Virus record (IMG/VR): IMGVR_UViG_3300032135_000002 | Direction: 5' to 3' (one strand) | DNA from: an uncultured virus (IMG/VR IMGVR_UViG_3300032135_000002) | Taxonomy: Duplodnaviria; Heunggongvirae; Uroviricota; Caudoviricetes | DNA: 64,000 nucleotides | Shown here: one piece after another, positions 1-43,060 of the stretch | Numbering within the stretch: the stretch's first letter is position 1 | Layout: every line of letters begins with the position of its first letter | Notes under the pieces: model-generated | The model's database searches: none | What the model saw: the letters and a program-made list of their open reading frames with translations, nothing else | What the model was told of the DNA's origin: nothing | Position numbers and translations under genes: made by a program

Positions 1-528
1 AGTCATACCCAGTACATAAGTGCCATCAAGTTTTTCAGTCTTGTTGAGAGCGGTAACAACCTACGGGAAGCTTATATAAAAACGTTTCCTGAACGGTGGG
101 AAGAAAGAAGCCGTCGTAGCGATGATCCGGATGCAGTCATAAATGCCGAAGCCAGCAGGTTTAATAAAACCCGGTTGGTAAATGACGTTCGCAGAATGTC
201 AGCTATACCCATCCAGCTTATCCATCGACACATACTGCATGAAGCCATTCTTTCACAAGCCCACCTTATGCGTACTTCAAGATCCGACATGGTAAGGCAG
301 AAGGCAGGCGCAACGCTGATCTCAGAGCTGAAGCCTACGGAAGATCAGACCATCAATATCAACGTAGATGATGGGTCCAAGTCCGTGATACAGGAGCTTA
401 GAGAGGCTACTGAGAAGCTCGCTGCAGCAGAGCGTAGATCCGTAGATGCCGGAGTTCCCATGAGGGATATCGCAAATTCCAACATCATAGAAGCGGAATT
501 TAGCAGCAGTAGCAGGGATGACGATTAA
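1..528 (+). CDS. N4 gp69-like protein (putative terminase small subunit), 5'-truncated
   Basis: Frame is open from base 1 (SHTQYISAIKFFSL...AYIKTFPERW...FNKTRLVN). Resembles N4-like gp69. Its stop overlaps the TerL start (TAATG). Confidence 0.7.
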   Translation, partial: SHTQYISAIKFFSLVESGNNLREAYIKTFPERWEERSRRSDDPDAVINAEASRFNKTRLVNDVRRMSAIPIQLIHRHILHEAILSQAHLMRTSRSDMVRQKAGATLISELKPTEDQTININVDDGSKSVIQELREATEKLAAAERRSVDAGVPMRDIANSNIIEAEFSSSSRDDD

Positions 529-2126
529 TGGATTTGGATAAACAGCTAAATTTAGTAGATTATGGATTCTTTGACACAGATTACCGTCCAACACAATTTG
601 CTTTAGAATTTATCGCTTTTGTTAAGCTGGTTAATGGTTCCATGGGGGAAGAAAACAAATCTCCTATTATCCATTACGACATGCTAGATCAGCTATCGGA
701 AGAACGGCCAGGCGCAGCTTCGAGGTTTCTTCAAAACCTGTACGTGTCTTTTCGTGGATCAGCTAAGACAACGGCTTTGCACGAGTACATGTACCTGTAC
801 CTGGCAACCTATGGCGGTATTAAAGGCATAGGTCCTATAAACGTAGCCATGTACATAAGTGACACTATGGAGAACGGTGTGAAGTCCATGAGGAATAACT
901 TGGAGTTCCGGTGGAACAACAGCGAGTTTCTTCAGAAGTACGTGCCGTATACCAGATTTACAGATGTTAGGTGGGAGTTTAAGAACGCTGACGGTAAGAG
1001 GCTGACGGTTCGTGGTTTTGGTGCTACTACGGGTGTTCGTGGTTTTAAAGAATACGGTGAGCGTCCGACGTGGTGCGGTATGGACGATTTGATGTCTGAC
1101 AAAAATGCCGAGTCAGCAACTATTATTCGTGACATAAAAAACATTGTGTATAAAGCTGCACGTCAGGCAATGCACCCTAAGAAGCGTATTGTTATATGGA
1201 CGGGCACACCCTTCAACAAATCAGATCCGTTCTATGAAGCTGCCAGCAGCAATGCTTGGAACGTTCGTGTGTACCCTATTTGTGAAAAATTCCCGTGCAC
1301 TAAACAAGAATTTAAAGGTGCTTGGGAAGATCGATTCCCTTACTCCTTTGTCAAAAACGAGTATTACTCATTGTTGGAGAGTGGTGAAATCAGCTCTTTC
1401 AACCAGGAGCTTATGTTGAGAATCACAAGCGAAGAAAGCAGGCTGGTTACGGACAGTGATCTGGTTTGGTACAACAGAGATCTGGTTGTTAAAAATCGTT
1501 CAAAGTTTAACTTCTATATTACTACTGACTTTGCCACATCTGATGGAAAGAAGAGTGACTACAGCGTGTGTGGTGTTTGGGCTTACACTAACAATGGTGA
1601 ATGGCTCCTAGTAGATGGGTTTTGTAAGCGACAGCTGATGGATAAAAACATTGACCAGCTATTTAGGTACGTTTCTGTATACCGTCCTTTAAGCGTCGGT
1701 ATTGAGATTAACGGTCAGCAGAAAGGTTTTATACAGTGGATAAAAGGAGAAATGATAACCCGTAACATATTCTTTAACTTTGCAAAACAGGGCAACATTG
1801 AAGGTATTCGTCGTACTGCTAAAAAAATAGTGTCTTTTAAATTGTTTGTACCTCAGATCAAAGCTAAGAAAGTTTGGTTACCAATAGAGATGAAAAAAGA
1901 TCCTTTGCTGGTAGAAATTGTGGAAGAGCTGACGTTTGCAACTGAAGAAGGCTTCCAATCTAAAAATGACGATGCTGGTGATATGATGTCCATGTTGACA
2001 GAAATGGACCCTTACAAGCCTGGTGAAGCAGTTGAAGTCTCTTATACAGAAGATGAAGATGGTAATCATGGCTTGTTTGTAGACGACGAAGAAGAAGACT
2101 TATACAATAGCAGCACAATATTTTAG
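528..2126 (+). CDS. terL: Terminase large subunit, N4 gp68-like
   Basis: Walker A-like FRGSAKTT, Walker B CGMDD, coupling motif WTGTP, nuclease motifs ITTDFATS and DDAGD; 532 aa. Confidence 0.92.
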   Translation: MDLDKQLNLVDYGFFDTDYRPTQFALEFIAFVKLVNGSMGEENKSPIIHYDMLDQLSEERPGAASRFLQNLYVSFRGSAKTTALHEYMYLYLATYGGIKGIGPINVAMYISDTMENGVKSMRNNLEFRWNNSEFLQKYVPYTRFTDVRWEFKNADGKRLTVRGFGATTGVRGFKEYGERPTWCGMDDLMSDKNAESATIIRDIKNIVYKAARQAMHPKKRIVIWTGTPFNKSDPFYEAASSNAWNVRVYPICEKFPCTKQEFKGAWEDRFPYSFVKNEYYSLLESGEISSFNQELMLRITSEESRLVTDSDLVWYNRDLVVKNRSKFNFYITTDFATSDGKKSDYSVCGVWAYTNNGEWLLVDGFCKRQLMDKNIDQLFRYVSVYRPLSVGIEINGQQKGFIQWIKGEMITRNIFFNFAKQGNIEGIRRTAKKIVSFKLFVPQIKAKKVWLPIEMKKDPLLVEIVEELTFATEEGFQSKNDDAGDMMSMLTEMDPYKPGEAVEVSYTEDEDGNHGLFVDDEEEDLYNSSTIF

Positions 2127-2137
2127 GAGACACAACT

Positions 2138-2782
2138 GTGAACATTAGCGAAGCTATTGAAATACTAATCAACTCTGAGCTAAAACAGTTGAGCCTTTCC
2201 GATGATAAAAAAGCAATTATCGGATACATCAATACTGCCATCACCGTTCTCTATAGTCGTTTCGATTTGTGGGAAGAAGTAGCGGTAGTGACAATGGTTG
2301 ATGGTGTAAATAAGTATACTATTGATGAACAAGATACCAATGTTGCTTTAGACAATACCGATCACGAATTTATTATGATCAATTCCATCTTTGATAAAGA
2401 AGATGAAAAGATAGAAATAAGCATTAAAGAAATTGATTACAAAATAAAAGTTCCTAGATACGGTAAAATAGAAGTTCCAAAATACAATATAATAAAAGTT
2501 GAAACACCCATAGAAGGTGATACTCTTAAAGTTAATTACAAAGCCGCACCAAAATTTCTTACTTACGAAAAACAGGCTATTCCACTACCCCCTCAGTATT
2601 TTGAAGCGTTGTTTCACTATGTTGGGTATCGGGCACATGCTTCTGTTAACGGTGACATCAAGGGTGAAAACAATACTCACTTCATGAGATTTGAACAAAG
2701 CTGTAAACTTATTAAATCTCAAGGACTTCAAAATGAAGACTCAATGCAAGTTTTCAAATTTGAGGCTAGTGGGTTTGTTTAA
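2138..2782 (+). CDS. N4 gp67-like virion (head-tail adaptor) protein
   Basis: Follows N4-like TerL; C-terminal LPPQYFEALFHYVGYRA...FEQSC pattern; SD AGGAG before GTG. Confidence 0.7.
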   Translation: MNISEAIEILINSELKQLSLSDDKKAIIGYINTAITVLYSRFDLWEEVAVVTMVDGVNKYTIDEQDTNVALDNTDHEFIMINSIFDKEDEKIEISIKEIDYKIKVPRYGKIEVPKYNIIKVETPIEGDTLKVNYKAAPKFLTYEKQAIPLPPQYFEALFHYVGYRAHASVNGDIKGENNTHFMRFEQSCKLIKSQGLQNEDSMQVFKFEASGFV

Positions 2783-2810
2783 AAGAAAAAATCAAAAGGT
2801 GTATAAAAAA

Positions 2811-2981
2811 ATGCTTACACAAAGTGAGTTTAATATTATTTATGAATTTTTAGATAGGGTACCTTTAAAAGGTCATAATGAAAGAACTGCTCTAAACTCT
2901 GTTATAATCAAACTTCAAAAAAGTACAATACAAGACAGCAGACAAAATGAAGATAATGGAAGGCGAGAGTCTGACAACTAA
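2811..2981 (+). CDS. Small hypothetical protein
   Basis: ATG 2811 with AAGGT upstream; fills the gap in the operon. Confidence 0.5.
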   Translation: MLTQSEFNIIYEFLDRVPLKGHNERTALNSVIIKLQKSTIQDSRQNEDNGRRESDN

Positions 2982-3017
2982 AGATGTGTATTTTTAAAAT
3001 AAGGTGCCCTAACTGAG

Positions 3018-3227
3018 ATGGAAGACTACTTTAGCAAGCTCGAAGAGAAGATTGAGCGTGACTCCAATTTCAGTAATGAGGAAATCGATGTCTTGAAATC
3101 CGTTATTAAGGTTTACCGAGGAATACTGGGAATTAAGATAATTGGATCTTGGATGGTTGCCTTGTTGGTAGGGTTTTCAGCTGTTTTGGTTTCTTGGAGC
3201 AGCATAGTAGAGAGGCTTGACAATTAA
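3018..3227 (+). CDS. Small membrane protein, holin-like
   Basis: One C-terminal hydrophobic helix; similar layout to 49357..49560; upstream of a peptidase. Confidence 0.55.
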   Translation: MEDYFSKLEEKIERDSNFSNEEIDVLKSVIKVYRGILGIKIIGSWMVALLVGFSAVLVSWSSIVERLDN

Positions 3228-3676
3228 TGAACGCCATAAGAAGAGTTGTTGAAAATACATTTGTTGTTTGGTTAGGTATTATTTTTCTTCTCAGTCTTAT
3301 ATTTATCGGAAAAGCAGCTAATTTAATAGGACGTCATTTCCCTGTTGTAACTCCTTTAAATATAACAAGTGTTGAAAAAATTGTAAATTTTGGTTTGGAT
3401 TCAAGTTTAATTAAAGGTACAAGTACTAAGCTCAGAGACTGTGATCAAAGAACTATGAGTTGGTTTATTGGTGAAGGTGGAAATGAAGGATCTGTTGTTA
3501 GCCTGTTTAAAGAAAAACCACAATCAAGAGAAAAAGGACTTATTGAGTTTACTGGTATAGTTGTTGGGCTTCCTCCAGAAAAACTTGATTTTGCAAGATC
3601 AGAAGTAGGTCATGATTGTTTTGGTGGTTATGTACGAGTAGTGAGTAATTTCTACACAGGAAAAGAGATAAGGTAA
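3227..3676 (+). CDS. Membrane-anchored periplasmic protein of lysis cassette
   Basis: N-terminal TM helix; FPVVT, KLRDC and HDC motifs shared with 49557..50039. Confidence 0.6.
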   Translation: MNAIRRVVENTFVVWLGIIFLLSLIFIGKAANLIGRHFPVVTPLNITSVEKIVNFGLDSSLIKGTSTKLRDCDQRTMSWFIGEGGNEGSVVSLFKEKPQSREKGLIEFTGIVVGLPPEKLDFARSEVGHDCFGGYVRVVSNFYTGKEIR

Positions 3677-3682
3677 AAAATT

Positions 3683-4132
3683 ATGATTCTTTGGATTCCT
3701 GAGCTTCAGCCAACAGAATGGCCTAATGGCACTATAGAAAAAATGGACCCAAAAATTCTAAAGGCTGCTATTGCCTTAAGAACAGAATCTGGAATACCCA
3801 TGACTCCAAGCCCAATATATAAAGGGCATGTAAGACAAAATGGAAATTCAAGGCACAGCATAAAAGAAGGAAAACGTCTTTCAGACGCTACCGATTTTTT
3901 TGTAAAATCTGATGTTAAAAGTATTTACAAAATAATTCAGTCGATATCCACGGTTTTAGAAATACGTGGTTGGGGTGTCTACTTTGATACTAAGCCAAGC
4001 GTCATGTTTCACATAGACTGCAGACCAGATTGCCTGGAGTGGATACGAGTAAACGGAAAATACATCTACGCTGTTAATAACCCTTCATTATATTACTCCG
4101 AACTTGCAAAACAGTTGAGCAAACTTAATTGA
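3683..4132 (+). CDS. Putative endolysin, peptidase M15-like
   Basis: Zn-peptidase pattern NSRH...ATDF...GWGVY...FHIDCR. Confidence 0.65.
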   Translation: MILWIPELQPTEWPNGTIEKMDPKILKAAIALRTESGIPMTPSPIYKGHVRQNGNSRHSIKEGKRLSDATDFFVKSDVKSIYKIIQSISTVLEIRGWGVYFDTKPSVMFHIDCRPDCLEWIRVNGKYIYAVNNPSLYYSELAKQLSKLN

Positions 4133-4204
4133 GTTAAACTCACAATTATATTACTGTAATCATGATATAATTTCGCAACAAACACGAACACCGAGGAATT
4201 ACTA

Positions 4205-4573
4205 ATGGCATTTATTGCAGGTACGGTTTACGACAACGGTTTGTCTTACGCACAGACTAACGGCACACAGCTGGATATCACCAGCTCAGAAGCTACTACC
4301 TACGCACAAGCAACCAGCACTTTGACTCTGGGTAATGACACAGTAGTTACATCTGCTCCAAGTAACGGTGCCGTTGATGGTCGGCGTGTACAGGTTCCTG
4401 CTATTACTGCAGGATCGGTTACAGGAACTGGAACGGCGGCATTCTGGGCTCTTACCGATGGTGTTGGTGAGCTTCTTGCAACAGGTACTATCACCTCTCA
4501 AGCAGTAACATCAGGAAACACATTCTCTTTGACAGCCATTAGCATTACATTGCGTGACGCTACAGCGGCTTAA
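4205..4573 (+). CDS. Small beta-rich virion structural protein
   Basis: SD GAGG; A/T/G-rich; GTAAFWAL and VTSGNTFSL resemble 9638..10027 and 52721..53161. Confidence 0.65.
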   Translation: MAFIAGTVYDNGLSYAQTNGTQLDITSSEATTYAQATSTLTLGNDTVVTSAPSNGAVDGRRVQVPAITAGSVTGTGTAAFWALTDGVGELLATGTITSQAVTSGNTFSLTAISITLRDATAA

Positions 4574-4670
4574 AAAGTAGAGTATCTGTAAACAGTTTTG
4601 GTGCACGCACGAAAGGTATTAAAGTTACTGAGTAATGCGTGCACTGTTTTATTTAATGAGGTTTAAATTT

Positions 4671-5099
4671 ATGAATAACTTGTTTGTTGTTATCCTGATT
4701 TCTTTTCTACTGTCCGGATGTTCCGTATTAGATAATATCGAAAAATCCCCAATGGCTTCAGAATTGATTACTAATCAAATCACTCTACGTTTTATTGCGG
4801 GTTCTGATAATCCTGCGGAACGGGCCGATGCTTTGAGAGAAACGTTGAAAGAGATCACCTTAAAGGTGTCAGGTCCCGAGCTTTACTCCCTGGCAGACAT
4901 CGAGAACACCGTGCGTGAAAATATCGATTGGTCTTCTTACAATTTGGCAGACCAGGAGCTGTTAAATTTTGCCTTAACAAAAGCACGACTTGTCATTAGC
5001 GATCTCATTGATGAAGGCATTGTAAGTCCGGATGAACGTTACCCATTGGAAACACTGATTCAGTGGATTGACCAAGCGGCACAGAGAGTCAGTTCATGA
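4671..5099 (+). CDS. Lipoprotein
   Basis: ATG 4671 with GAGG; signal peptide and lipobox LLSGC. Confidence 0.7.
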   Translation: MNNLFVVILISFLLSGCSVLDNIEKSPMASELITNQITLRFIAGSDNPAERADALRETLKEITLKVSGPELYSLADIENTVRENIDWSSYNLADQELLNFALTKARLVISDLIDEGIVSPDERYPLETLIQWIDQAAQRVSS

Positions 5100-5476
5100 C
5101 TGAGGCGGTTGAGTTAGCTGCATTGCCTGCATTTTCAGTGCTCAGTAAAGAGCATGTTAAGGGTGATAATTGGAAGCTCACCAAGCCGCTTTTCTATTTT
5201 CACCGAAGTGGTAAGACAATCATAATCCCAGAGGGTTTTGAATGCGACGGTGATAGTGTCCCACGTATCCCTGTCATCTATGCGATGTACAAGGGTCGAG
5301 CAATCCATGCGGCGTGGGTTCATGACTACCTGTATCGGGAACAGCGCGGTAAGGAGTTTGCCGATTTGATGTTTCTTGACGCCATGGAAGATCAGGGTCT
5401 TCCCGAACATATTCGCTACCCGATCTACTGGGGACCGTTTTTGTTTGGAAACAGCAGATACAGGGGTAAAGCGTAA
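5096..5476 (+). CDS. DUF1353 family protein
   Basis: IPEGFECDGDSVPR...AAWVHDYLY...ADLMFLDAM signature. Confidence 0.85.
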   Translation: MTEAVELAALPAFSVLSKEHVKGDNWKLTKPLFYFHRSGKTIIIPEGFECDGDSVPRIPVIYAMYKGRAIHAAWVHDYLYREQRGKEFADLMFLDAMEDQGLPEHIRYPIYWGPFLFGNSRYRGKA

Positions 5477-5685
5477 TGGTAGAAGTAAAAAAACGCACAG
5501 CACTGAAAACCACAAAGAATGTTGCAAAGAACAGCGGTGAGTTAGGCGGTGCAGCTGTAGCCATCATTCTGACAAAAGTTGCCCAGTCTTATGGAATACC
5601 CATCGGTGTTACAGAAGCAACGATCCTTGGCGGCTTTCTTGTTGGTATTGGCTCAAACATTCGGCATTTAATCAAAGACGACTGA
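5476..5685 (+). CDS. Small two-TM membrane protein (holin-like)
   Basis: Two hydrophobic segments; TAATG coupling. Confidence 0.5.
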   Translation: MVEVKKRTALKTTKNVAKNSGELGGAAVAIILTKVAQSYGIPIGVTEATILGGFLVGIGSNIRHLIKDD

Positions 5686-5695
5686 GGTAAACACC

Positions 5696-6136
5696 ATGAT
5701 CAAATTTGCAGCTTTTTTAATCGTCGGCATGATAGTCACATTGGCAGCCCACGCGGCCCCGGCTACATCTGAGCTAAGTTGGACAGCCCCGGACACCCGG
5801 GTTGATGGCACTCCACTGACGCTGGAAGAAATAAAAGAGTATCGGGTGTACTACACCGTGGACGGGCAGACGCCGGGCGACGGCTCCCCTGTTGTCGTGA
5901 ATGGCGCGTTAGGCAGCCAAACGGTAACACTAGAGCTGTTGCCCCGGGCCACTCCCTATGTTGTGGGGTTTGCTATTACCACCGTAGATACCGATGGGGT
6001 TGAGTCTGTGCGCTCGGATGTAGTCAGCAAGACATTCAACATCGACAGAATCGTGAAACCTTCTGCACCGACGAACCTACAGTTCAACATTACCTGCGGT
6101 GATGGCTGTACGATTACTGAAAAAGTGGGGCAGTAA
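5696..6136 (+). CDS. Secreted fibronectin type III-like protein
   Basis: Signal peptide ending AHA; LSWTAP...YRVYY...VDTDGVES...KPSAPTNL. Confidence 0.75.
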   Translation: MIKFAAFLIVGMIVTLAAHAAPATSELSWTAPDTRVDGTPLTLEEIKEYRVYYTVDGQTPGDGSPVVVNGALGSQTVTLELLPRATPYVVGFAITTVDTDGVESVRSDVVSKTFNIDRIVKPSAPTNLQFNITCGDGCTITEKVGQ

Positions 6137-6138
6137 CA

Positions 6139-6435
6139 TTGGTAAAATACTATCTTGTGCCAGTCATTGAGGACCCAGAGCTGGGCGGCAAGATTCCATA
6201 CACCGCGGCGACTTCGTGGACGGCTCGCTATCTGTCCGACACGGTTTGTCTGATTCGTGATCCAGACGGCTCACAGAACTACCCGCCGTTGCTGGACAAC
6301 ACGCCGGTAGGGACTTTGCCGCTGGAAGTTCAACCGACAATGACACCCGACGAGATAGATGTAGTTTACGCTAAGTGGGGCATAGAGCCTATGTCGTTGT
6401 GGAGTATGTTGTATGACCGAGTGGGTGGCGTCTAA
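6139..6435 (+). CDS. Hypothetical protein
   Basis: Contiguous in operon; TAATG coupling to the next gene. Confidence 0.6.
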   Translation: MVKYYLVPVIEDPELGGKIPYTAATSWTARYLSDTVCLIRDPDGSQNYPPLLDNTPVGTLPLEVQPTMTPDEIDVVYAKWGIEPMSLWSMLYDRVGGV

Positions 6436-7154
6436 TGACTCAGTTCTTTGAAGACTTCCGAGGTAAGACCCTCGACTCCACTCCACCGGAGTTTTCCGTT
6501 GCTTGGGAAGGGCCGCTCAGTCTGCTCGTAAAGGCAGGGAACCCGCTTGCCGGAAGCGCCAATCACCTACAGGTAATCCCGACCTCAACCGGTAGCTTTA
6601 GGCGAACAGCGGTAAAGTGGGACGTAGGAACTACATCCGGGAAAACAACGGTACGATTTCTGGCTCAGTTTTCGCCTGCCAATGTCACGATTCCGGGGGC
6701 TTTCCTAAGTGGCTCTGGAGCCACCGCTCAGCGTACGGGTTATGTGCAGTGGTGGGGTAGCAACCATAGAATATCGAAGTACGATAACGGTGGCGATTCG
6801 GCCATAGCGTCAGGGTCAACACCGCTTTCTAGTAGCGGTACCCCCACGTACTACTTTGAAATCATCAGAGACGGGGCGCTTGTAGAAGTCAGAGCTTGGG
6901 ATGTTGGTGGTACTAGGCCGGCAACCGCAGACGCATCAGTGACCGACGCGACTCCTCTACCTGTTGCGGGTTTTTTTGGTATTTCTTACCTTACGAACTC
7001 CAGCCCGACGATGGAGGTCTACGAAATAGCCGTAGGCACCAACGGCGACACAGCCCCGACCGCACCGGTCTCAACCGGTCCAGCTACCCCCGTTAACCTC
7101 GGCGCTACTAACATCCTCACTACCTCGGCCCGGCTTACTTGGGAGCAAGGATAA
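6435..7154 (+). CDS. Lectin-like beta-sandwich virion protein ending in half of an Fn3 domain
   Basis: FFEDF start, beta-rich core, C-terminus PATPVNLGATNILTTSARLTWEQG. Confidence 0.6.
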   Translation: MTQFFEDFRGKTLDSTPPEFSVAWEGPLSLLVKAGNPLAGSANHLQVIPTSTGSFRRTAVKWDVGTTSGKTTVRFLAQFSPANVTIPGAFLSGSGATAQRTGYVQWWGSNHRISKYDNGGDSAIASGSTPLSSSGTPTYYFEIIRDGALVEVRAWDVGGTRPATADASVTDATPLPVAGFFGISYLTNSSPTMEVYEIAVGTNGDTAPTAPVSTGPATPVNLGATNILTTSARLTWEQG

Positions 7155-9622
7155 TGGCTATCGACGTACCGCAGGCTGATAAAGACGCGCTGGTTGCTTT
7201 TTACAATGCGACGGGCGGCTCCAGCTGGAATACAAATACAAACTGGCTAGTCACAGAAGGTGTGGGTGACTGGTACGGAGTGACAGTCAGTGGCGGGCGT
7301 GTTACTGCGCTTGACCTGGCTTACAATAACGTGGTCGGGGCGGCTGGCAGCAGTTTAGCGGCCCTCACCTCCCTTACCACTTTGTATTGCAACGACAACT
7401 CGCTCACCACTTTGGATGTATCGGGGCTTACCTCGCTGACCGGCCTGTACTGCGGATACAACTCAATCACGACCCTAGGTGTGGCAGGGCTTACCTCACT
7501 GACAGAGATTCAGTGCTACGCCAACTCGCTCACAACACTGGATGTATCCGCACTCACGGCGCTGACCGTGATATCCTGCGGATACAACACGATCACCACA
7601 CTGAACGTATCAGCCCTCACCTCCCTGTCAAGTCTGTATTGCACCAATAACTCAATCACAACATTAGATGTAGCAGCCCTTACGGCGCTGACCATTCTGA
7701 ACTGTGAAAGCAACTCGATTACCACACTGGATGTATCAGCCCTCACGTTGCTGACAGAGATTAAGTGCGACGATAATACAATCACAGCCTTGGATGTATC
7801 CGCCCTTACGTCACTGACCACGCTATATTGCTTCACCAACGCGCTTACCACGTTGAATGTGGCAGGGCTTACCTCCCTGACAAACCTGCTGTGCTACGCT
7901 AATTCGCTCTCATCGCTGGACGTGTCAGGGCTTACCTCGCTGGTAATTCTGGACTGCAACAACAACTCGATTACGACCCTAGACGTAGCAGCCCTTACGT
8001 CGGCAACGTGGATTCAATGCAACAACAACTCAATTGCGGCATTGAATGTATCCAGCCTTACGTTACTGACCAAGCTGTACTGTGCCGACAATGCCATGAC
8101 CGCAGGGGCCATAGACAATATACTAGGTGGGGTAGATTCAGCTGGACCAACTAACGGGACGCTTCAAGCCGACGGCACAAACGCGGCTCCCTCAGCGACA
8201 GGGCTAGGCTATAAAGACGCTCTAGTCGCAAAAGGCTGGACGGTGACAGTGGCCGCAGCACCTACCACATATGTAGACATTGCGGCCGCTGCCAGCAGCG
8301 CCCTGACCGCTGCCGGTAGTGCAGGGGGTACACTGTCCTATACCCTCGAATGGCGACTAGTCGCTGGCCCGGGCGCCACGACTACTGTGACGGGCATCAC
8401 CGGACTGTTCTATGATCTGACAGGACTGACTCAGGCAACCCAGTATGAGTCCCGGGTACTGGAAACGGACGGGGTAACGCCCTCCGCGTTCTCGGCGTGG
8501 TACTCGTTTACTACGGCAGCGGAAGTCACCTACGTAGACATTGCGGCAGCGGCTGCAAGCGCGCTGGCCACTTCGGGCACAGCCACCACGCTCAAGTCTG
8601 TAGCGGGCACAGCTTCTAGCGTGCTCAGCACTACGGGCACGGCGTCTACTGTCCAAAGCGTTGCTGGCACAGCCACTGCGGCGCTAAGCACTTCGGGCAC
8701 AGCCACCACGCTCAAGTCTGTAGCGGGCACAGCCACTGCGGCGCTAAGCACTACAGGCGCAGCGGCGGTTACCAAGTCGGTGTCTGGCTCGGCTACTGCT
8801 GCCCTCACAACAACCGGAGCGGTCAGCGGGGGCACGACAGCCGCAGGTACTTCGTCCTCAGCGCTAAGTGCTTCGGGCACGGCGGCTATCAGCAAGTCTG
8901 TAACTGGCTCGGCCACTGCAGCACTTAGCGCTGCCGGCGATACTACCAAGCTGGTGACCGCAGCGGGCGCGGCCACTGCTGCGCTAGCAACCACCGCCGC
9001 CGGCTCTAAGGTCATATCTGTAGCGGCAAGCGCGGCGGCCACGCTTACGACTTCCGGCAGTGCGTTTGGGGGCGCGGCGTCAGACGCTTCGGGCTCAGCT
9101 GCCGCCACGCTCACAGCGTTGGGCGCAGCCGTAGCAGACAGGGCGGCAGCGGCAAGCGCGTCGAGCACGCTGACTGCCTCGGCCAGTGCTGCAGTTACCA
9201 AGACCGTCGGCGGCTCGGCCAGTGCAACGGCGTCAGGGCTGGCCAGTGCTGCCGTTATACGCTCCGTGTTCGCAAACGCGTTCTCGGTGCTGACGACTAC
9301 CGGCGCTGCTGTATCGGGGGTGGCTTCAGATTCAAGTGGTAGCGCTTCCAGCACGCTACTGGTGTCGGGAACCGCAGCCAAAACAGTCAGTGTCAGTGCT
9401 GGTGCGCTGGCTACGCTGACTGCAACGGGGGTAGTAGCCAGCAGCAGAGACGCCGCGGCGGCGGCGTTTGCTAGGCTCATAGCGAGGGGTGATACAACAG
9501 GCGGAACCGTTGTGCAGCCGCGCAGTCTCTACGCGGACGAAGTGAGTATTTTCCCGGCCATGTCGTGCTACACTGCTGTAATACCAGCGCTGTACGGCGA
9601 CGAAGTCGTACGACCTAGATAA
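7154..9622 (+). CDS. Leucine-rich-repeat / Fn3 / Ala-Thr-Ser-repeat fibre-like protein
   Basis: ATG 7154 overlaps upstream TAA; LRR N-cap (DKDALVAFYNATGG...W...WYGV), 12 LRRs, partial Fn3, long A/T/S/G repeat region. Confidence 0.85.
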   Translation: MAIDVPQADKDALVAFYNATGGSSWNTNTNWLVTEGVGDWYGVTVSGGRVTALDLAYNNVVGAAGSSLAALTSLTTLYCNDNSLTTLDVSGLTSLTGLYCGYNSITTLGVAGLTSLTEIQCYANSLTTLDVSALTALTVISCGYNTITTLNVSALTSLSSLYCTNNSITTLDVAALTALTILNCESNSITTLDVSALTLLTEIKCDDNTITALDVSALTSLTTLYCFTNALTTLNVAGLTSLTNLLCYANSLSSLDVSGLTSLVILDCNNNSITTLDVAALTSATWIQCNNNSIAALNVSSLTLLTKLYCADNAMTAGAIDNILGGVDSAGPTNGTLQADGTNAAPSATGLGYKDALVAKGWTVTVAAAPTTYVDIAAAASSALTAAGSAGGTLSYTLEWRLVAGPGATTTVTGITGLFYDLTGLTQATQYESRVLETDGVTPSAFSAWYSFTTAAEVTYVDIAAAAASALATSGTATTLKSVAGTASSVLSTTGTASTVQSVAGTATAALSTSGTATTLKSVAGTATAALSTTGAAAVTKSVSGSATAALTTTGAVSGGTTAAGTSSSALSASGTAAISKSVTGSATAALSAAGDTTKLVTAAGAATAALATTAAGSKVISVAASAAATLTTSGSAFGGAASDASGSAAATLTALGAAVADRAAAASASSTLTASASAAVTKTVGGSASATASGLASAAVIRSVFANAFSVLTTTGAAVSGVASDSSGSASSTLLVSGTAAKTVSVSAGALATLTATGVVASSRDAAAAAFARLIARGDTTGGTVVQPRSLYADEVSIFPAMSCYTAVIPALYGDEVVRPR
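7364..8098 (+). repeat. 12 x 63-bp (21-aa) LRR tandem array
   Basis: Consensus LTSLTxLxCxxNSITTLDVSA. Confidence 0.9.
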
Positions 9623-40512: not shown

Positions 40513-40670
40513 GGTTCTTACCGTTTATTGGTTTCCGCAGGTGCCACGTCGATTTTGCTGGCTGGCGCGTGGACCACGATTCCGGGTACACAGCTGAGAC
40601 GCTTGAAGTCGAGTGGCTGTTTGTCAGGATAACTCTGTACACGTTCGGTTATCGCAAAGGACCGCTATGA
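40509..40670 (+). CDS. Small hypothetical protein (53 aa, not in ORF track)
   Basis: MRFLPFIGFRRC...; ATGA overlaps at both ends. Confidence 0.5.
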   Translation: MRFLPFIGFRRCHVDFAGWRVDHDSGYTAETLEVEWLFVRITLYTFGYRKGPL

Positions 40671-43060
40671 GCGCCCCGACCAAAATTCAGAAGCTCCTTG
40701 CTGGGCGCGAACTGGCTCGGCGCCGGTTACTGCACTTCACGAAGGTGACCCACGGGTCCTACGACGCCGGCTGGGTGCACGAGGATATCTGCCGCCGGCT
40801 TGAGAAGTTCTCTAAGGACGTGGCCGACGGCAAGTCGCCAAGACTCATGCTCCTGATGCCCCCACGTCACGGTAAAAGTGAGCTGGCCTCGATACGCTTC
40901 CCGGCGTGGCACTTTGGCTCGTACCCCCACCACGAAATTATCAACGTCGGTTACAACACCGAGCTGCCCATGAAGTTCTCGCGCAAGGTGCGGGAAGTCA
41001 TGCGCGAAGGTCAGTATCAGGGGATCTTCCCCAATGCAGCACTCGACCCTAATTCTCAGTCCGTAGAAGCGTGGTACACAACTGCCGGCGGCGGATTTAC
41101 CGCGGCGGGTGTTGGTGGTGGTATTACCGGTAAGGGCGCGCACGTTCTGGTTATCGACGACCCTATTAAGAACCAAGAGGAAGCAGACAGCGTGTCTGTC
41201 CGCGACAAGCTCTGGGACTGGTACCAGTCGACGGCGTACACCCGCTTGGCGCCCGGCGGCGGGGTGCTGGTTATCGAGTGTATGACGGGTGATACCCCGG
41301 TCAGACTCCCCAACGGCTCAGAACGTCGTCTTGACGAGCTGCGTGCAGGGGACGTTATTGCTACGTATGAGAATGGGAAATTATCATCTTCTCGCGTGGC
41401 TAATCACCGCAGTAGTGGTAATGATCACATCTTGAGGATTACCACGAGTTCCGGTAAAATAGTACGTGCTAACGGACGGCATCCGTTCTTAGCTACGACA
41501 ACTACCGGAGAGTTAAAGTGGATAAGAGCGCGCAGCCTGTCATTAGCGAACAAAATCGTAACCGTAAAGGCCAGTGGGGGAAATACGCAGGGGTCGAATG
41601 CGCCGCAGCTGATTGCGACAAACCCGCCAAGTGCAGAGGTTTCTGCCCTAGTCACTACAGTAAGTGGAAGTGGGCTAGTGGGTACCGCGCCCCGTCTGCT
41701 AACCCAGTCTCCCAGCGCGCAGCACACCTCAAGTACAGATATGGGATCACAGCGGACGAGTACCAAGCCCTCCTTGAAGAACAGAATGGCTTGTGCGCAA
41801 TCTGCAGAAAAACTGGCAAAGACTCCAGAAACCCAGATCGGTGGAACCACATCCTCGCCGTCGACCACTGCCACGACTCCAACAAAGTCCGAGGGTTGCT
41901 CTGCAACGACTGTAACGCTGGAATCGGACATCTTGGAACTGAGTCCATCGCACTTGCCGCTGCACGATACCTCCGACTTCACGCTTGATGAGATAGTCAG
42001 TATCGAGCCTGATGGTGTCGAGGAAGTGTTCGATATCTCTGTCGAACGTACCACGAACTTCATCGCTAATGGCGTGGTATCGTCGAATACATGGTGGAAC
42101 GACGATGACCTCGCCGGCAGGCTCCAAGATTCCATGCGCAGGGATCCTGAGGCGGATCAGTTCGAGATCGTGAAGTACCCGGCTATTTCGGGCCAGTACG
42201 AATATCGCAACGACGAGACGAACGCGATTGTCTGCTTTACCGAAGACCCCAACCTGCTCGAAGGTGATGACGCTACCAAAGGGCTGACCCTGCTACGTAA
42301 GCCCAACGAGTGTCTGCACCACGGTCGCTACCCGCTTAGCGCCTTGAAGCGCATCAAAGCGAACTTACAGCCCCGGATCTGGTCGGCTTTGTTCCAGCAG
42401 AACCCTGTTCCTGATGAGGGCATGTACTTCCGGAAGGATTATTTTCGAGAGCAGCAGACGTTCCCCCAGACCTTCGGGCTTAGAATCTTCACGGCGTGGG
42501 ACTTCGCGATTGGTGAGAAGCAGGTCAACGACTGGACAGTTGGGGCCACCTTGCTCCAAGACGAGAACGACGTGCTGTATGTCCTCGACATACACAGATT
42601 TCGCGGTGACAGTTTCCAGATCGTAGAGGCCATACTCGACACCACTGAGCGCTACAGTTCGTTGGCCGGAGTGGACTATCAGGTGGGTGCCGAGGACGGC
42701 ATGATATGGCGGTCCATCGAACCCTTGTTGAAACGCCGCATGGGCGAGCGCCGGCTGTTCCCGGTTATTGAGCCGTTACGGCCAATAACAGACAAAGCTG
42801 CACGGGCCCGCCCGTTGCAGGGTAGAATGCAGCAGGGCCGGGTTGTTTTCCCGGCAGAGGCGCACTGGAAGGGGACGGCAGTATCCGAGATGCTAAGATT
42901 CCCGGCAGGTGCGCACGACGACGTAGTGGACGCGCTGGCGTGGGCCGTCCGTTTAAGCATGATGTCCGAGCCACCACAGCAGCCGCAGGAGCGCCGGATA
43001 CCTTCATGGCGAGACAAGCTAACAGCCGCCGGCAACGCCGGCAGCCACATGACCGCATAG
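40667..43060 (+). CDS. terL: Terminase large subunit, intein-containing
   Basis: MPPRHGKS, GITGKGA, VIDDPIK, VIE|TWWNDDDL, AWDFA, HDDVVDAL; start ATG 40667 with AAGGA. Confidence 0.95.
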   Translation: MSAPTKIQKLLAGRELARRRLLHFTKVTHGSYDAGWVHEDICRRLEKFSKDVADGKSPRLMLLMPPRHGKSELASIRFPAWHFGSYPHHEIINVGYNTELPMKFSRKVREVMREGQYQGIFPNAALDPNSQSVEAWYTTAGGGFTAAGVGGGITGKGAHVLVIDDPIKNQEEADSVSVRDKLWDWYQSTAYTRLAPGGGVLVIECMTGDTPVRLPNGSERRLDELRAGDVIATYENGKLSSSRVANHRSSGNDHILRITTSSGKIVRANGRHPFLATTTTGELKWIRARSLSLANKIVTVKASGGNTQGSNAPQLIATNPPSAEVSALVTTVSGSGLVGTAPRLLTQSPSAQHTSSTDMGSQRTSTKPSLKNRMACAQSAEKLAKTPETQIGGTTSSPSTTATTPTKSEGCSATTVTLESDILELSPSHLPLHDTSDFTLDEIVSIEPDGVEEVFDISVERTTNFIANGVVSSNTWWNDDDLAGRLQDSMRRDPEADQFEIVKYPAISGQYEYRNDETNAIVCFTEDPNLLEGDDATKGLTLLRKPNECLHHGRYPLSALKRIKANLQPRIWSALFQQNPVPDEGMYFRKDYFREQQTFPQTFGLRIFTAWDFAIGEKQVNDWTVGATLLQDENDVLYVLDIHRFRGDSFQIVEAILDTTERYSSLAGVDYQVGAEDGMIWRSIEPLLKRRMGERRLFPVIEPLRPITDKAARARPLQGRMQQGRVVFPAEAHWKGTAVSEMLRFPAGAHDDVVDALAWAVRLSMMSEPPQQPQERRIPSWRDKLTAAGNAGSHMTA
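41279..42088 (+). mobile_element. Intein (270 aa) in TerL
   Basis: N-term CMTGDTPV, block B RANGRHPF, block F VFDISVERTTNFIANG, C-term SSN followed by Thr; excision restores VLVIE-TWWNDDDL. Confidence 0.93.
41518..41988 (+). CDS. Endonuclease VII-type (His-Me) homing endonuclease, overprinted in an alternate frame inside the intein
   Basis: GTG with GGAG 7 nt upstream; C....C...G.C..HY Zn module, YGIT..EY, CAIC, LAVDHCH, VRGLLCNDCNAGIG, YL. Confidence 0.92.
   Translation: MDKSAQPVISEQNRNRKGQWGKYAGVECAAADCDKPAKCRGFCPSHYSKWKWASGYRAPSANPVSQRAAHLKYRYGITADEYQALLEEQNGLCAICRKTGKDSRNPDRWNHILAVDHCHDSNKVRGLLCNDCNAGIGHLGTESIALAAARYLRLHA

What the first reader, a model, noticed from the sequence alone, without database searches (positions are those of the whole stretch)
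41279..42088. Dual-coding intein: a complete EndoVII homing endonuclease overprinted out of frame inside a terminase intein
Seen: the TerL frame reads straight through a 270-aa intein (Cys1...Asn270|Thr). Where a fused endonuclease normally sits there is only an S/T/P-rich, disordered-looking linker. The same DNA in the -1 frame (41518-41988) encodes a 156-aa endonuclease VII-type nuclease with intact motifs (CAIC, VDHCH, RGLLCNDCN) and an N-terminal Zn module. It has its own SD (GGAG, 7 nt before GTG), and its TGA falls exactly where the C-terminal splicing region (DEIVSIE) begins. Established: mobile inteins usually carry LAGLIDADG or HNH domains in frame. Inference: splicing and homing are encoded as two separate proteins from one sequence. 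Both frames have been kept stop-free over 156 codons, so the nuclease could be expressed independently of TerL. Standard annotation would call this a degenerate mini-intein and miss the nuclease.
Basis: partly seen in the sequence, partly recalled or inferred. Interest (0 to 1): 0.92.

Follow-up and report, generated by a model that had tools for sequence, protein, structure and literature searches.

The report
Terminase intein with out-of-frame nuclease gene
A phage DNA-packaging gene carries a self-splicing protein insert (an intein) whose middle also encodes, one base out of step, a complete endonuclease VII-type homing nuclease; the double coding is real and kept by selection, but it belongs to a family first described in a 2025 preprint.

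Summary
The 815-aa TerL frame (40613-43060) reads through a 270-aa intein (41279-42088; Pfam Intein_splicing 4e-16). A 156-aa ORF in the -1 frame (41518-41988) matches Pfam Endonuclease_7 at 3.3e-20. This is not a sequencing error. The same -1 offset, an intact nuclease ORF and an open TerL frame recur in 44 of 44 loci examined: the window, 3 GenBank actinophages and 40 IMG/VR contigs. The most variable codon position switches from the TerL frame to the nuclease frame at about 41549 and back at about 41969, so the nuclease frame is the selected one in the middle. The TerL-frame reading of that stretch is an unstructured loop (pLDDT about 29). The nuclease frame folds confidently (pLDDT 84). 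71 of 80 related TerL genes have no insert at the site, which fits a mobile element. [quoted passage not shown] This window is a homologous member in a phage outside the actinobacteriophages, related to Pseudomonas phage KPP25. Verdict: real, a new member of a known kind, of moderate interest.

The parts
40613..43060 (+). terL (large terminase) ORF, 815 aa, including the intein. The true start codon was not determined.
   Evidence: ORF list. Pfam Terminase_6N 1.3e-10 and Terminase_6C 6.1e-11.
40613..41278 (+). N-extein (ATPase part of TerL), ending ...VLVIE
   Evidence: 71 of 80 related TerL genes run straight from this point into the C-extein.
41279..42088 (+). Intein of 270 codons in the TerL frame: Cys1 ... 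Ser269-Asn270, followed by Thr+1
   Evidence: Pfam Intein_splicing 4e-16. Boundaries are conserved in 25 aligned relatives. Foldseek finds mini-inteins, E 8.7e-10.
41279..41575 (+). N-terminal splicing domain (intein residues 1-99)
   Evidence: AF2 pLDDT 83-97. TerL-frame third positions are the most variable over 41279-41518.
41507..41510 (+). GGAG Shine-Dalgarno-like core, 7 nt before the nuclease start. It is encoded by the intein's Gly-Glu codons.
   Evidence: Sequence. A strict SD core lies at -15..-5 in 30 of 37 loci.
41518..41988 (+). Endonuclease VII-type (HNH, beta-beta-alpha-metal fold) nuclease ORF: 156 aa, -1 frame relative to terL, GTG start, TGA stop
   Evidence: Pfam Endonuclease_7 3.3e-20. 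T4 endonuclease VII 7e-9 by profile. AF2 pLDDT 84.1. Nucleotide diversity at codon positions 1/2/3 is 0.348/0.327/0.579.
41519..41578 (+). Doubly constrained overlap: the end of the N-splicing domain and the N-terminal tail of the nuclease
   Evidence: All three codon positions are similarly constrained (0.24-0.37) in these bins.
41576..41923 (+). TerL-frame 'linker' (intein residues 100-215): Ser/Thr/Pro/Ala-rich, predicted unstructured, a by-product of the nuclease frame
   Evidence: AF2 pLDDT below 50 (about 29) with no secondary structure. TerL-frame second positions are the most variable.
41599..41658 (+). N-terminal Cys-rich module of the nuclease (residues 28-47; C28, C33, C43 invariant), a putative zinc ribbon
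   Evidence: Alignment A1. Weak Pfam Zf_WRKY19 match, E 0.042, below cutoff. Function is inferred.
41725..41976 (+). Endonuclease VII catalytic core (nuclease residues 70-153; C93/C96, D116-H117, H119, C129/C132, N133)
   Evidence: Pfam match range. Aligned to the CxxC, DH and CxxCN motifs of T4 endonuclease VII. Invariant columns.
41966..42088 (+). C-terminal splicing region (intein residues about 230-270)
   Evidence: AF2 pLDDT 88-98. The most variable position returns to TerL position 3 from the 41969 bin onward.
42089..43060 (+). C-extein (TWWNDDDL..., TerL nuclease domain)
41576..41580 (+). G5 homopolymer (from the Trp-Gly codons of the nuclease), where one public run's contig lacks one G
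   Evidence: X12 only. After such a deletion the TerL frame would meet a stop within about 10 codons.

Best explanation
The window's terL carries a class-1-type HINT intein. The position normally held by an in-frame homing endonuclease domain holds instead a complete, separately translated endonuclease VII-type (HNH) gene in the -1 frame.

Shown:
- Both frames are open.
- The nuclease frame is the one under purifying selection over about 41549-41968. The TerL frame is the selected one on both flanks.
- The arrangement is conserved with the same offset in every relative found.
- The insert is sporadically distributed among related TerL genes.

Inferred mechanism:
- Ribosomes translating terL read through the nuclease region and produce a roughly 116-residue unstructured loop between the two halves of the splicing domain. 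The intein then excises itself and restores TerL.
- Independently, ribosomes initiate at the internal SD (GGAG) plus GTG at 41518 and make the 156-aa nuclease.
- That nuclease cuts intein-less terL alleles at or near the VLVIE|TWW junction during co-infection. Repair from the intein-bearing copy then spreads the whole element (homing).
- The SD and start codon are embedded in conserved intein codons (Gly-Glu...Trp).
For: Identity of the two products:
- Pfam hits both products above cutoff.
- A profile of 32 nuclease sequences matches T4 endonuclease VII at 7e-9, with the CxxC, DH and CxxCN motifs aligned.
- The Foldseek top hits for the nuclease model are T4 endonuclease VII, though weak (E 1.9e-3).
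- The intein model matches mini-inteins: E 8.7e-10, and NpuDnaB at TM 0.87.

Conservation:
- The offset is +2 in 37 of 37 loci, each with an intact ORF and a start codon.
- The TerL frame covers the nuclease ORF in 36 of 37; the exception is cut by a contig end.
- The third frame has 3-18 stops.
- 7 further loci have the same offset.
- Start codons are ATG in 36 and GTG in 8 of 44.
- An SD core is present in 30 of 37.

Selection:
- Diversity at nuclease codon positions 1/2/3 is 0.348/0.327/0.579.
- Amino-acid identity is higher in the nuclease frame than in the TerL frame in every divergence bin above 5% nucleotide divergence, for example 0.70 against 0.45 at 25-35%.
- The most variable codon position switches between frames along the intein.
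- Embedded ORFs have 0 TerL-frame stops in 32 of 32. Free-standing relatives have 2-21 in 20 of 20.

Folds: nuclease frame pLDDT 84.1. The TerL frame is below 50 over residues 100-215, flanked by 83-98.

Mobility:
- 71 of 80 related TerL genes have no insert at the site.
- The C-extein tree needs at least 8 changes of presence, 6 of them forced by well-supported branches.
- The nuclease closest to the window's (L137, 69%) sits in a TerL with only 46% C-extein identity. The closest C-extein (L060, 68%) has no intein.

Not an assembly error: virus record G001 is 100% identical over terL, and contigs of runs X13 and X15 are identical where they cover the stretch.
Against: - No direct evidence of expression, splicing or cleavage. 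No RNA holder of the stretch was listed.
- The window's intein has Ser instead of the usual penultimate His. 22 of 25 aligned inteins have His; only the window, L026 and L137 lack it. Splicing efficiency in this lineage is therefore not assured.
- The SD core is missing in 7 of 37 loci.
- The tree used FastTree on C-exteins only and contains some long branches. Presence is phylogenetically clustered (0 of 500 shuffles as low), so part of the pattern is vertical inheritance and gains cannot be told from losses.
- One run's contig (X12, depth 58) has a 1-nt deletion in the G5 run that would break both ORFs.
- One relative (L022) has a 7-residue deletion in the nuclease core, and one (L139) has its frames rearranged. 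Decay does occur in some lineages.
Confidence: 0.8

Rival explanations
1. Sequencing or assembly frameshift: the nuclease is really an in-frame intein domain, and indel errors put it out of frame.
For: A contig of run X12 differs by one G in the homopolymer at 41576-41580, so indels at this spot do occur in data.
Against: - Two compensating indels would be needed, one to enter the frame and one to leave it.
- The same offset occurs in 44 of 44 independent loci, including 3 finished GenBank phage genomes.
- G001, X13 and X15 match the window.
- The X12 deletion does not put the nuclease in frame with TerL. It sends TerL into the third frame, with a stop within about 10 codons.
- A search for longer fused forms found no fully in-frame TerL-intein-EndoVII protein: 2 hits, neither of that form. 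The tool itself rates a blank as weak evidence.
Confidence: 0.01
2. Relic: the nuclease ORF is a decaying remnant of an old invasion, no longer translated, and the element is in effect a mini-intein with a junk loop.
For: Some lineages show damage: a 7-residue core deletion in L022 and a frame rearrangement in L139. No expression data exist.
Against: - Codon-position periodicity follows the nuclease frame across the family.
- All catalytic and zinc-ligand columns are intact in the window.
- Start codons are kept in 44 of 44.
- An untranslated ORF would gather stops, as the third frame does with 3-18.
Confidence: 0.05
3. The nuclease is made by programmed -1 ribosomal frameshifting from the TerL frame, as an N-extein/N-intein/nuclease fusion, not by internal initiation.
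For: The nuclease frame is -1 relative to TerL. One contig (L139) encodes exactly such a fusion as a single ORF of 513 aa in the ORF list; its database entry P0001 is 512 aa.
Against: - A canonical slippery heptamer near the junction is present in only 2 of 37 unique sequences.
- A nuclease-frame stop lies 0-34 codons upstream of the start, and in three cases directly adjacent.
- An ATG or GTG is conserved at the aligned position in 44 of 44, with an SD in 30 of 37.
Confidence: 0.04
4. The nested endonuclease VII-like protein serves the phage rather than acting as a selfish homing enzyme. It might resolve branched DNA before packaging, as T4 gp49 does, or act as an HNH partner of terminase in cutting DNA.
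For: Homology to T4 endonuclease VII and its location inside terL. The packaging roles of T4 gp49 and of terminase-associated HNH proteins are recalled from the literature, not taken from a call.
Against: - 71 of 80 related TerL genes have no insert, and hence no nested nuclease, at this site.
- In 44 of 44 loci the nuclease comes together with the intein, at one conserved insertion site.
- Intein and extein similarities are incongruent.
Confidence: 0.08

Closest known systems
Out-of-frame ('frame 3') endonuclease VII-like homing endonuclease inteins in actinobacteriophage terL (Gosselin, Arsenault and Gogarten, bioRxiv 10.1101/2025.01.02.630785; their cluster 47 includes Angelicage, Affeca, Keitabear and Sedona)
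   Same: - Same host gene and same insertion site (...V-x-x|C...N|T-[WR]-W).
- Same frame offset.
- Homologous nuclease (46-50% identity to the window) and homologous splicing domain (49-53%).
   Different: - The window's phage is not an actinobacteriophage. Its portal is 50% identical to those of Pseudomonas phages KPP25 and phiR18, and the stretch occurs in runs labelled brine, marine or aquatic metagenome.
- The window has Ser, not His, at the penultimate intein position.
- The preprint called the distribution of these inteins 'ambiguous' and raised pseudogenisation as a possibility. No codon-position test appears in the sections I read.
Canonical in-frame HNH or LAGLIDADG inteins
   Same: A HINT splicing domain is interrupted at the same structural position by a homing nuclease coding region. 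The distribution is sporadic.
   Different: The nuclease is a separate polypeptide from another frame. The intein protein itself carries only an unstructured loop.
Hidden out-of-frame HNH insertion in mycobacteriophage DNA methylase (ShiLan domain; Arsenault et al. 2025, PMC11855218; abstract and section 4.3 read)
   Same: An HNH gene is overprinted in another frame on an insertion that stays open in the host gene's frame.
   Different: - ShiLan has no splicing domain, and its authors found no ribosome-binding site.
- Here a full intein is present, and an SD core precedes the start in 30 of 37 loci.
[quoted passage not shown]
   Same: An intein with an overlapping-frame homing endonuclease and a sporadic distribution.
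   Different: The host gene is cellular (dnaX). I did not read which nuclease family it has.
T4 endonuclease VII (gp49; PDB 1e7d, 1en7)
   Same: Shared HNH-type core with CxxC...DH...CxxCN (profile E 7e-9; Foldseek top hit).
   Different: - T4 gp49 is a free-standing junction-resolving enzyme (recalled).
- The window's protein has an extra N-terminal Cys-rich module.
- Only about 63 residues align, and the structural match is weak (TM 0.30).

Membership tests
Intein (HINT splicing domain, class 1 type) | Nucleophile (Cys, Ser or Thr) at intein position 1 | tested here: met
   Cys at 41279-41281. C1 is invariant in 25 of 25 aligned inteins.
Intein (HINT splicing domain, class 1 type) | Block B His (TxxH-type motif) | tested here: met
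   N65-x-R67-H68-P69-F70 is invariant. Asn takes the place of the usual Thr. The block naming is recalled, not taken from a call.
Intein (HINT splicing domain, class 1 type) | C-terminal Asn followed by a Cys, Ser or Thr +1 residue | tested here: met
   Asn270 followed by Thr. N270 is invariant.
Intein (HINT splicing domain, class 1 type) | Penultimate His | tested here: not met
   The window has Ser269. 22 of 25 relatives have His. This residue is common but not obligatory in inteins (recalled).
Intein (HINT splicing domain, class 1 type) | HINT fold / family profile above threshold | tested here: met
   Pfam Intein_splicing 59.6 bits against a cutoff of 35.8. Foldseek matches the Ssp DnaB mini-intein at 8.7e-10 and NpuDnaB at TM 0.87.
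Intein (HINT splicing domain, class 1 type) | Protein splicing activity | not testable with these tools
   Inferred only from the essential nature of TerL and the conserved splicing blocks.
Endonuclease VII / HNH (beta-beta-alpha-metal) nucleases, Pfam PF02945 | Family profile above the gathering score | tested here: met
   72.2 bits against a cutoff of 23.6, E 3.3e-20, covering 79 of 82 profile positions.
Endonuclease VII / HNH (beta-beta-alpha-metal) nucleases, Pfam PF02945 | Four-Cys zinc site (CxxC ... CxxC) and catalytic Asp-His and Asn | tested here: met
   C93/C96, D116-H117, C129/C132 and N133 are present and invariant or nearly so. They align to the T4 endonuclease VII motifs. The roles of these residues in T4 are recalled.
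Endonuclease VII / HNH (beta-beta-alpha-metal) nucleases, Pfam PF02945 | Nuclease activity | not testable with these tools
Out-of-frame EndoVII-like homing endonuclease inteins of terL (Gosselin et al. 2025) | Nuclease encoded within the intein on the same strand, in frame 3 (-1) relative to the intein | tested here: met
   Offset +2 in the window and in Angelicage, Affeca and AlanGrant.
Out-of-frame EndoVII-like homing endonuclease inteins of terL (Gosselin et al. 2025) | Sequence homology of nuclease and splicing domain to the described members, at the same terL site | tested here: met
   tblastn finds 46-50% identity for the nuclease and 49-53% for the N-terminal intein. The junctions are conserved.
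Out-of-frame EndoVII-like homing endonuclease inteins of terL (Gosselin et al. 2025) | Actinobacteriophage host (the scope of the original description, not a mechanistic criterion) | tested here: not met
   The portal's best matches are Pseudomonas phages KPP25 and phiR18 at 50%. No actinophage matches the exteins closely.
Homing endonuclease (functional class) | Sporadic presence among closely related host genes, with element and host-gene histories incongruent | tested here: met
   71 of 80 relatives are empty at the site. At least 8 changes are needed on the C-extein tree. L137 and L060 give opposite rankings for nuclease and extein similarity. No formal AU test was run.
Homing endonuclease (functional class) | Site-specific cleavage of the element-free allele | not testable with these tools
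   Needs a biochemical assay.

The most novel reading that the evidence does not exclude
The -1 overprinted layout may not be a short-lived intermediate on the way to an in-frame fusion or to decay, which is how the 2025 preprint frames it. It may instead be a single-origin, long-lived and evolutionarily stable architecture.

- One ancestral event placed the nuclease's SD and start inside the intein's conserved Gly-Glu...Trp codons.
- The composite element has since moved between TerL genes of phages infecting different bacterial phyla: Gordonia and Mycobacterium phages, and KPP25-like phages from brines.
- Over that time the nuclease diverged to about 42% identity, yet the offset never changed (44 of 44).

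Separate translation would let the element set nuclease dosage and timing independently of the abundant late protein TerL.
Probability: 0.45. Interest if true: 0.55.

Novelty: new member of a known kind. Interest (0 to 1): 0.38.

Why it matters
**Annotation.** Gene callers and GenBank records list only 'terminase' over these loci, so a whole class of nested nuclease genes goes unannotated. The intein could easily be misread as a degenerate mini-intein.

**Intein evolution.** The family is a living example of the 'splicing domain first, nuclease invades later' model. The data here extend it beyond actinobacteriophages. They also show that selection acts on the nuclease frame, while the TerL frame is constrained only to stay open.

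**Engineering.** The intein tolerates a loop of about 116 residues of essentially arbitrary sequence at the endonuclease insertion point.

**Limits.** The concept is already in print as a preprint. Earlier reports of this scan also found many terminase inteins with overprinted nucleases. This window therefore adds breadth, not a new principle.

Tried and rejected
- **Own genome.** The window's assembly is not held, so I used the nearest virus record, G001, instead.
- **Promoters.** Two sigma-70-like matches lie upstream of the nuclease start, at 41358-41387 and 41432-41460. The count (2) is no higher than in shuffles (1.4 +/- 1.2), so this is not evidence of an internal promoter.
- **Antisense ORF.** The 236-aa ORF at 41425-42135 (-) is the codon-aligned antisense of the nuclease frame. 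It is open in only 3 of 37 unique relatives and is rejected as coding.
- **Synonymous shuffles.** These were meant to show stop avoidance but proved uninformative. The median fraction of shuffles with an open TerL frame was 0.23 (0.53 for the window), because the avoidance is already built into the codon and amino-acid make-up. The free-standing relatives served as the control instead.
- **Frameshift signals.** Slippery heptamers were found in 2 of 37.
- **Expression.** No RNA holder of the stretch was listed. Contigs of X20, guessed to be RNA, cover only parts at 90-95% likeness and mostly run on into unlike sequence, so they come from relatives. No conclusion can be drawn.
- **Fused forms.** The search for longer fused forms returned 2 proteins, neither a full in-frame TerL-intein-EndoVII fusion. 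The tool warns that a blank is weak evidence.
- **Earlier literature.** Kelley et al. 2016 (PMC5050341): a term search of the main text found no mention of endonuclease VII or of these phages.
- **Not done.** A formal AU test of intein against extein trees, an overlapping-gene dN/dS model, and a scan of bacterial genomes or metagenome contigs.
Full report
**1. Observation**

The window's + strand holds an 815-aa ORF (40613-43060) with Terminase_6N and Terminase_6C matches, interrupted by an Intein_splicing match. The intein runs from Cys (41279-41281) to Asn (42086-42088), and Thr follows. A second ORF runs from GTG at 41518 to TGA at 41986-41988, 156 aa, offset +2 (= -1) from terL. It matches Pfam Endonuclease_7 at 3.3e-20, 72.2 bits against a cutoff of 23.6. 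GGAG lies at 41507-41510, 7 nt upstream of the GTG.

**2. Not an artefact**

tblastn of the 156-aa product against GenBank phages placed its best relatives inside the terL genes of Gordonia and Mycobacterium phages.

- In Angelicage, Affeca and AlanGrant the nuclease ORF (151, 151 and 194 aa) is again offset +2 from a terL frame that reads straight through. The records annotate only 'terminase'.
- A scan of IMG/VR with the nuclease gave 54 loci. 33 have the nuclease inside a terL intein and 21 are free-standing.
- In the window plus these 36 loci, the offset is +2 in 37 of 37. The nuclease ORF is intact with a start codon in 37 of 37. The terL frame spans it in 36 of 37, the exception being cut by a contig end. 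The third frame holds 3-18 stops.
- A second scan with the C-extein added 7 more intein-bearing loci with the same offset, for 44 of 44 in all.
- A virus record (G001) is 100% identical to the window over terL.
- The stretch is held by 20 public runs from 15 studies. Contigs of X13 and X15 match exactly.
- A contig of X12 lacks one G of the G5 run at 41576-41580. That change would not bring the nuclease in frame with TerL. It would end TerL within about 10 codons. It is therefore either a homopolymer error (X12 also has low-depth indel variants nearby) or a defective variant.

**3. Which frame is selected**

- Across 32 unique nuclease ORFs, nucleotide diversity at nuclease codon positions 1/2/3 is 0.348/0.327/0.579. 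In every divergence bin above 5%, amino-acid identity is higher in the nuclease frame than in the TerL frame over the same bases.
- Along a 23-sequence nucleotide alignment of the whole intein, the most variable position changes as follows:
  - TerL position 3 from 41279 to 41518;
  - all three positions similarly constrained over 41519-41578;
  - TerL position 2 (= nuclease position 3) from about 41549 to 41968;
  - TerL position 3 again from 41969 onward.
- The middle of the intein therefore evolves as a nuclease gene, and the TerL frame there is constrained only to stay open.
- Embedded nuclease ORFs have 0 TerL-frame stops in 32 of 32. Free-standing relatives have 2-21 in 20 of 20.
- Openness in the window alone is not improbable given its codons: 53% of synonymous shuffles stay open.

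**4. Folds**

- With a 32-sequence alignment, the nuclease frame folds at mean pLDDT 84.1.
- Its profile matches T4 endonuclease VII (7e-9) and Hpy99I (2e-6), with the CxxC, DH and CxxCN motifs aligned.
- Foldseek's top hits are T4 endonuclease VII, but weak (E 1.9e-3, TM 0.30).
- The TerL-frame intein, with a 25-sequence alignment, gives pLDDT 83-97 for residues 1-99, about 29 with no secondary structure for residues 100-215, and 88-98 for residues 230-270.
- The intein model matches mini-inteins: Ssp DnaB at 8.7e-10, and NpuDnaB at TM 0.87 and rmsd 2.0.

**5. How the nuclease is made**

- An ATG (36) or GTG (8) sits at the aligned start in 44 of 44 loci.
- A strict SD core lies at -15..-5 in 30 of 37.
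- A nuclease-frame stop lies 0-34 codons upstream of the start, and canonical slippery heptamers occur in only 2 of 37.
- Internal initiation is therefore the best reading and frameshifting is unlikely.
- The SD and start overlap conserved intein codons (Gly-Glu ... Trp81).
- Promoter-like matches upstream do not exceed chance.

**6. Mobility**

- Of 80 TerL relatives found with the C-extein, 71 have no insert at the site, 7 carry the intein plus nuclease, 1 has another insert elsewhere and 1 is cut.
- A FastTree tree was built from 102 C-exteins, 31 of them intein-bearing. Rows without a near-full C-extein match were dropped, including L001-L003, L016, L018 and L029-L036. L070 and L094 were scored as empty.
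- On that tree, presence needs at least 8 changes, 6 of them forced by well-supported branches. The window sits among 39 empty alleles in a 42-row group with support 88.
- Presence is also clustered (0 of 500 shuffles as low), so inheritance is partly vertical.
- The nuclease nearest the window's (L137, 69%) lies in a TerL with 46% C-extein identity. The nearest C-extein (L060, 68%) is empty.
- This pattern fits homing or other horizontal movement, but gain and loss are not separated.

**7. What is known**

[quoted passage not shown] They name Angelicage, Affeca, Keitabear and Sedona, which are the window's GenBank relatives.
- They propose invasion of an intein by a free-standing nuclease gene, and they leave expression open.
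- Related cases:
  - a hidden out-of-frame HNH in a phage methylase insertion (PMC11855218; abstract and section 4.3);
- Two literature searches found no report of this family outside actinophages.
- Earlier reports of this scan describe many terminase inteins with overprinted HNH genes. These are not independent evidence.

**8. What the window adds**

- The phage is not an actinophage. Its portal is 50% identical to those of Pseudomonas phages KPP25 and phiR18, its terL DNA resembles theirs up to the insertion point, and the runs that hold the stretch are labelled brine, marine or aquatic metagenome.
- The family therefore spans phages of different host phyla with an unchanged offset.
- The window's intein has Ser at the penultimate position instead of His, as do L026 and L137.

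**9. Verdict**

The element is a new member of a known (2025) kind and of moderate interest. Expression, splicing and cleavage are inferred, not shown.

Noticed in passing
L139:2394-5037 (protein P0001): One IMG/VR contig has the TerL N-extein, the N-terminal intein half and the endonuclease VII domain fused in a single ORF (513 aa in the ORF list; database entry P0001 is 512 aa) that ends at the nuclease stop. The C-terminal intein half and the C-extein lie in another frame (ORF 3610-5037). The nuclease's N-terminal tail is shortened by a length that is not a multiple of three. This could be a split-intein-like derivative, a defective phage or an assembly error.
   Followed up: partly
L022:3001-3450: The nuclease has a 7-residue deletion that removes the KVRGLLC strand, including one zinc-ligand Cys. 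The terL frame stays open, so this looks like a decaying nuclease in a still-open intein.
   Followed up: no
L011 (terL frame 779-4528, 1249 aa) and L036 (863-4363, 1166 aa): The terL frames are about 300-350 codons longer than in the other loci. In L011 there is a gap of about 1.1 kb inside the N-extein match. This is possibly a second intein at another terL site.
   Followed up: no
L070:2429-3500: This TerL relative has no nuclease or N-intein match, but about 940 extra nt lie between the N-extein match (which ends at query residue 119) and the C-extein. A different insertion sits upstream of the usual site.
   Followed up: no
window 41576-41580: A contig of run X12 (depth 58) lacks one G of this G5 run. 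Runs X13 and X15 and record G001 have G5. X12 also shows low-depth indel variants nearby, which suggests homopolymer errors.
   Followed up: partly
window 41425-42135 (-): This 236-aa antisense ORF across the intein is the codon-aligned antisense of the nuclease frame. It is open in only 3 of 37 unique relatives, so it is a chance ORF.
   Followed up: yes
L002:1857-2441; L029, L031-L036 nuclease ORFs: Longer nuclease variants (192-209 aa) carry a second copy of the N-terminal Cys-rich module (C-x4-C ... C-x2-C/H) ahead of the WGKW motif.
   Followed up: no
window 1-64000: Gene layout: + strand ORFs at 528-9622, - strand ORFs at 10548-37090, and + strand structural genes from 40613 onward. The nearest virus record (62,289 bases, 94% complete by CheckV) starts about 9.8 kb into the window. 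The window therefore looks like most of a roughly 65-kb phage genome, not a prophage.
   Followed up: partly
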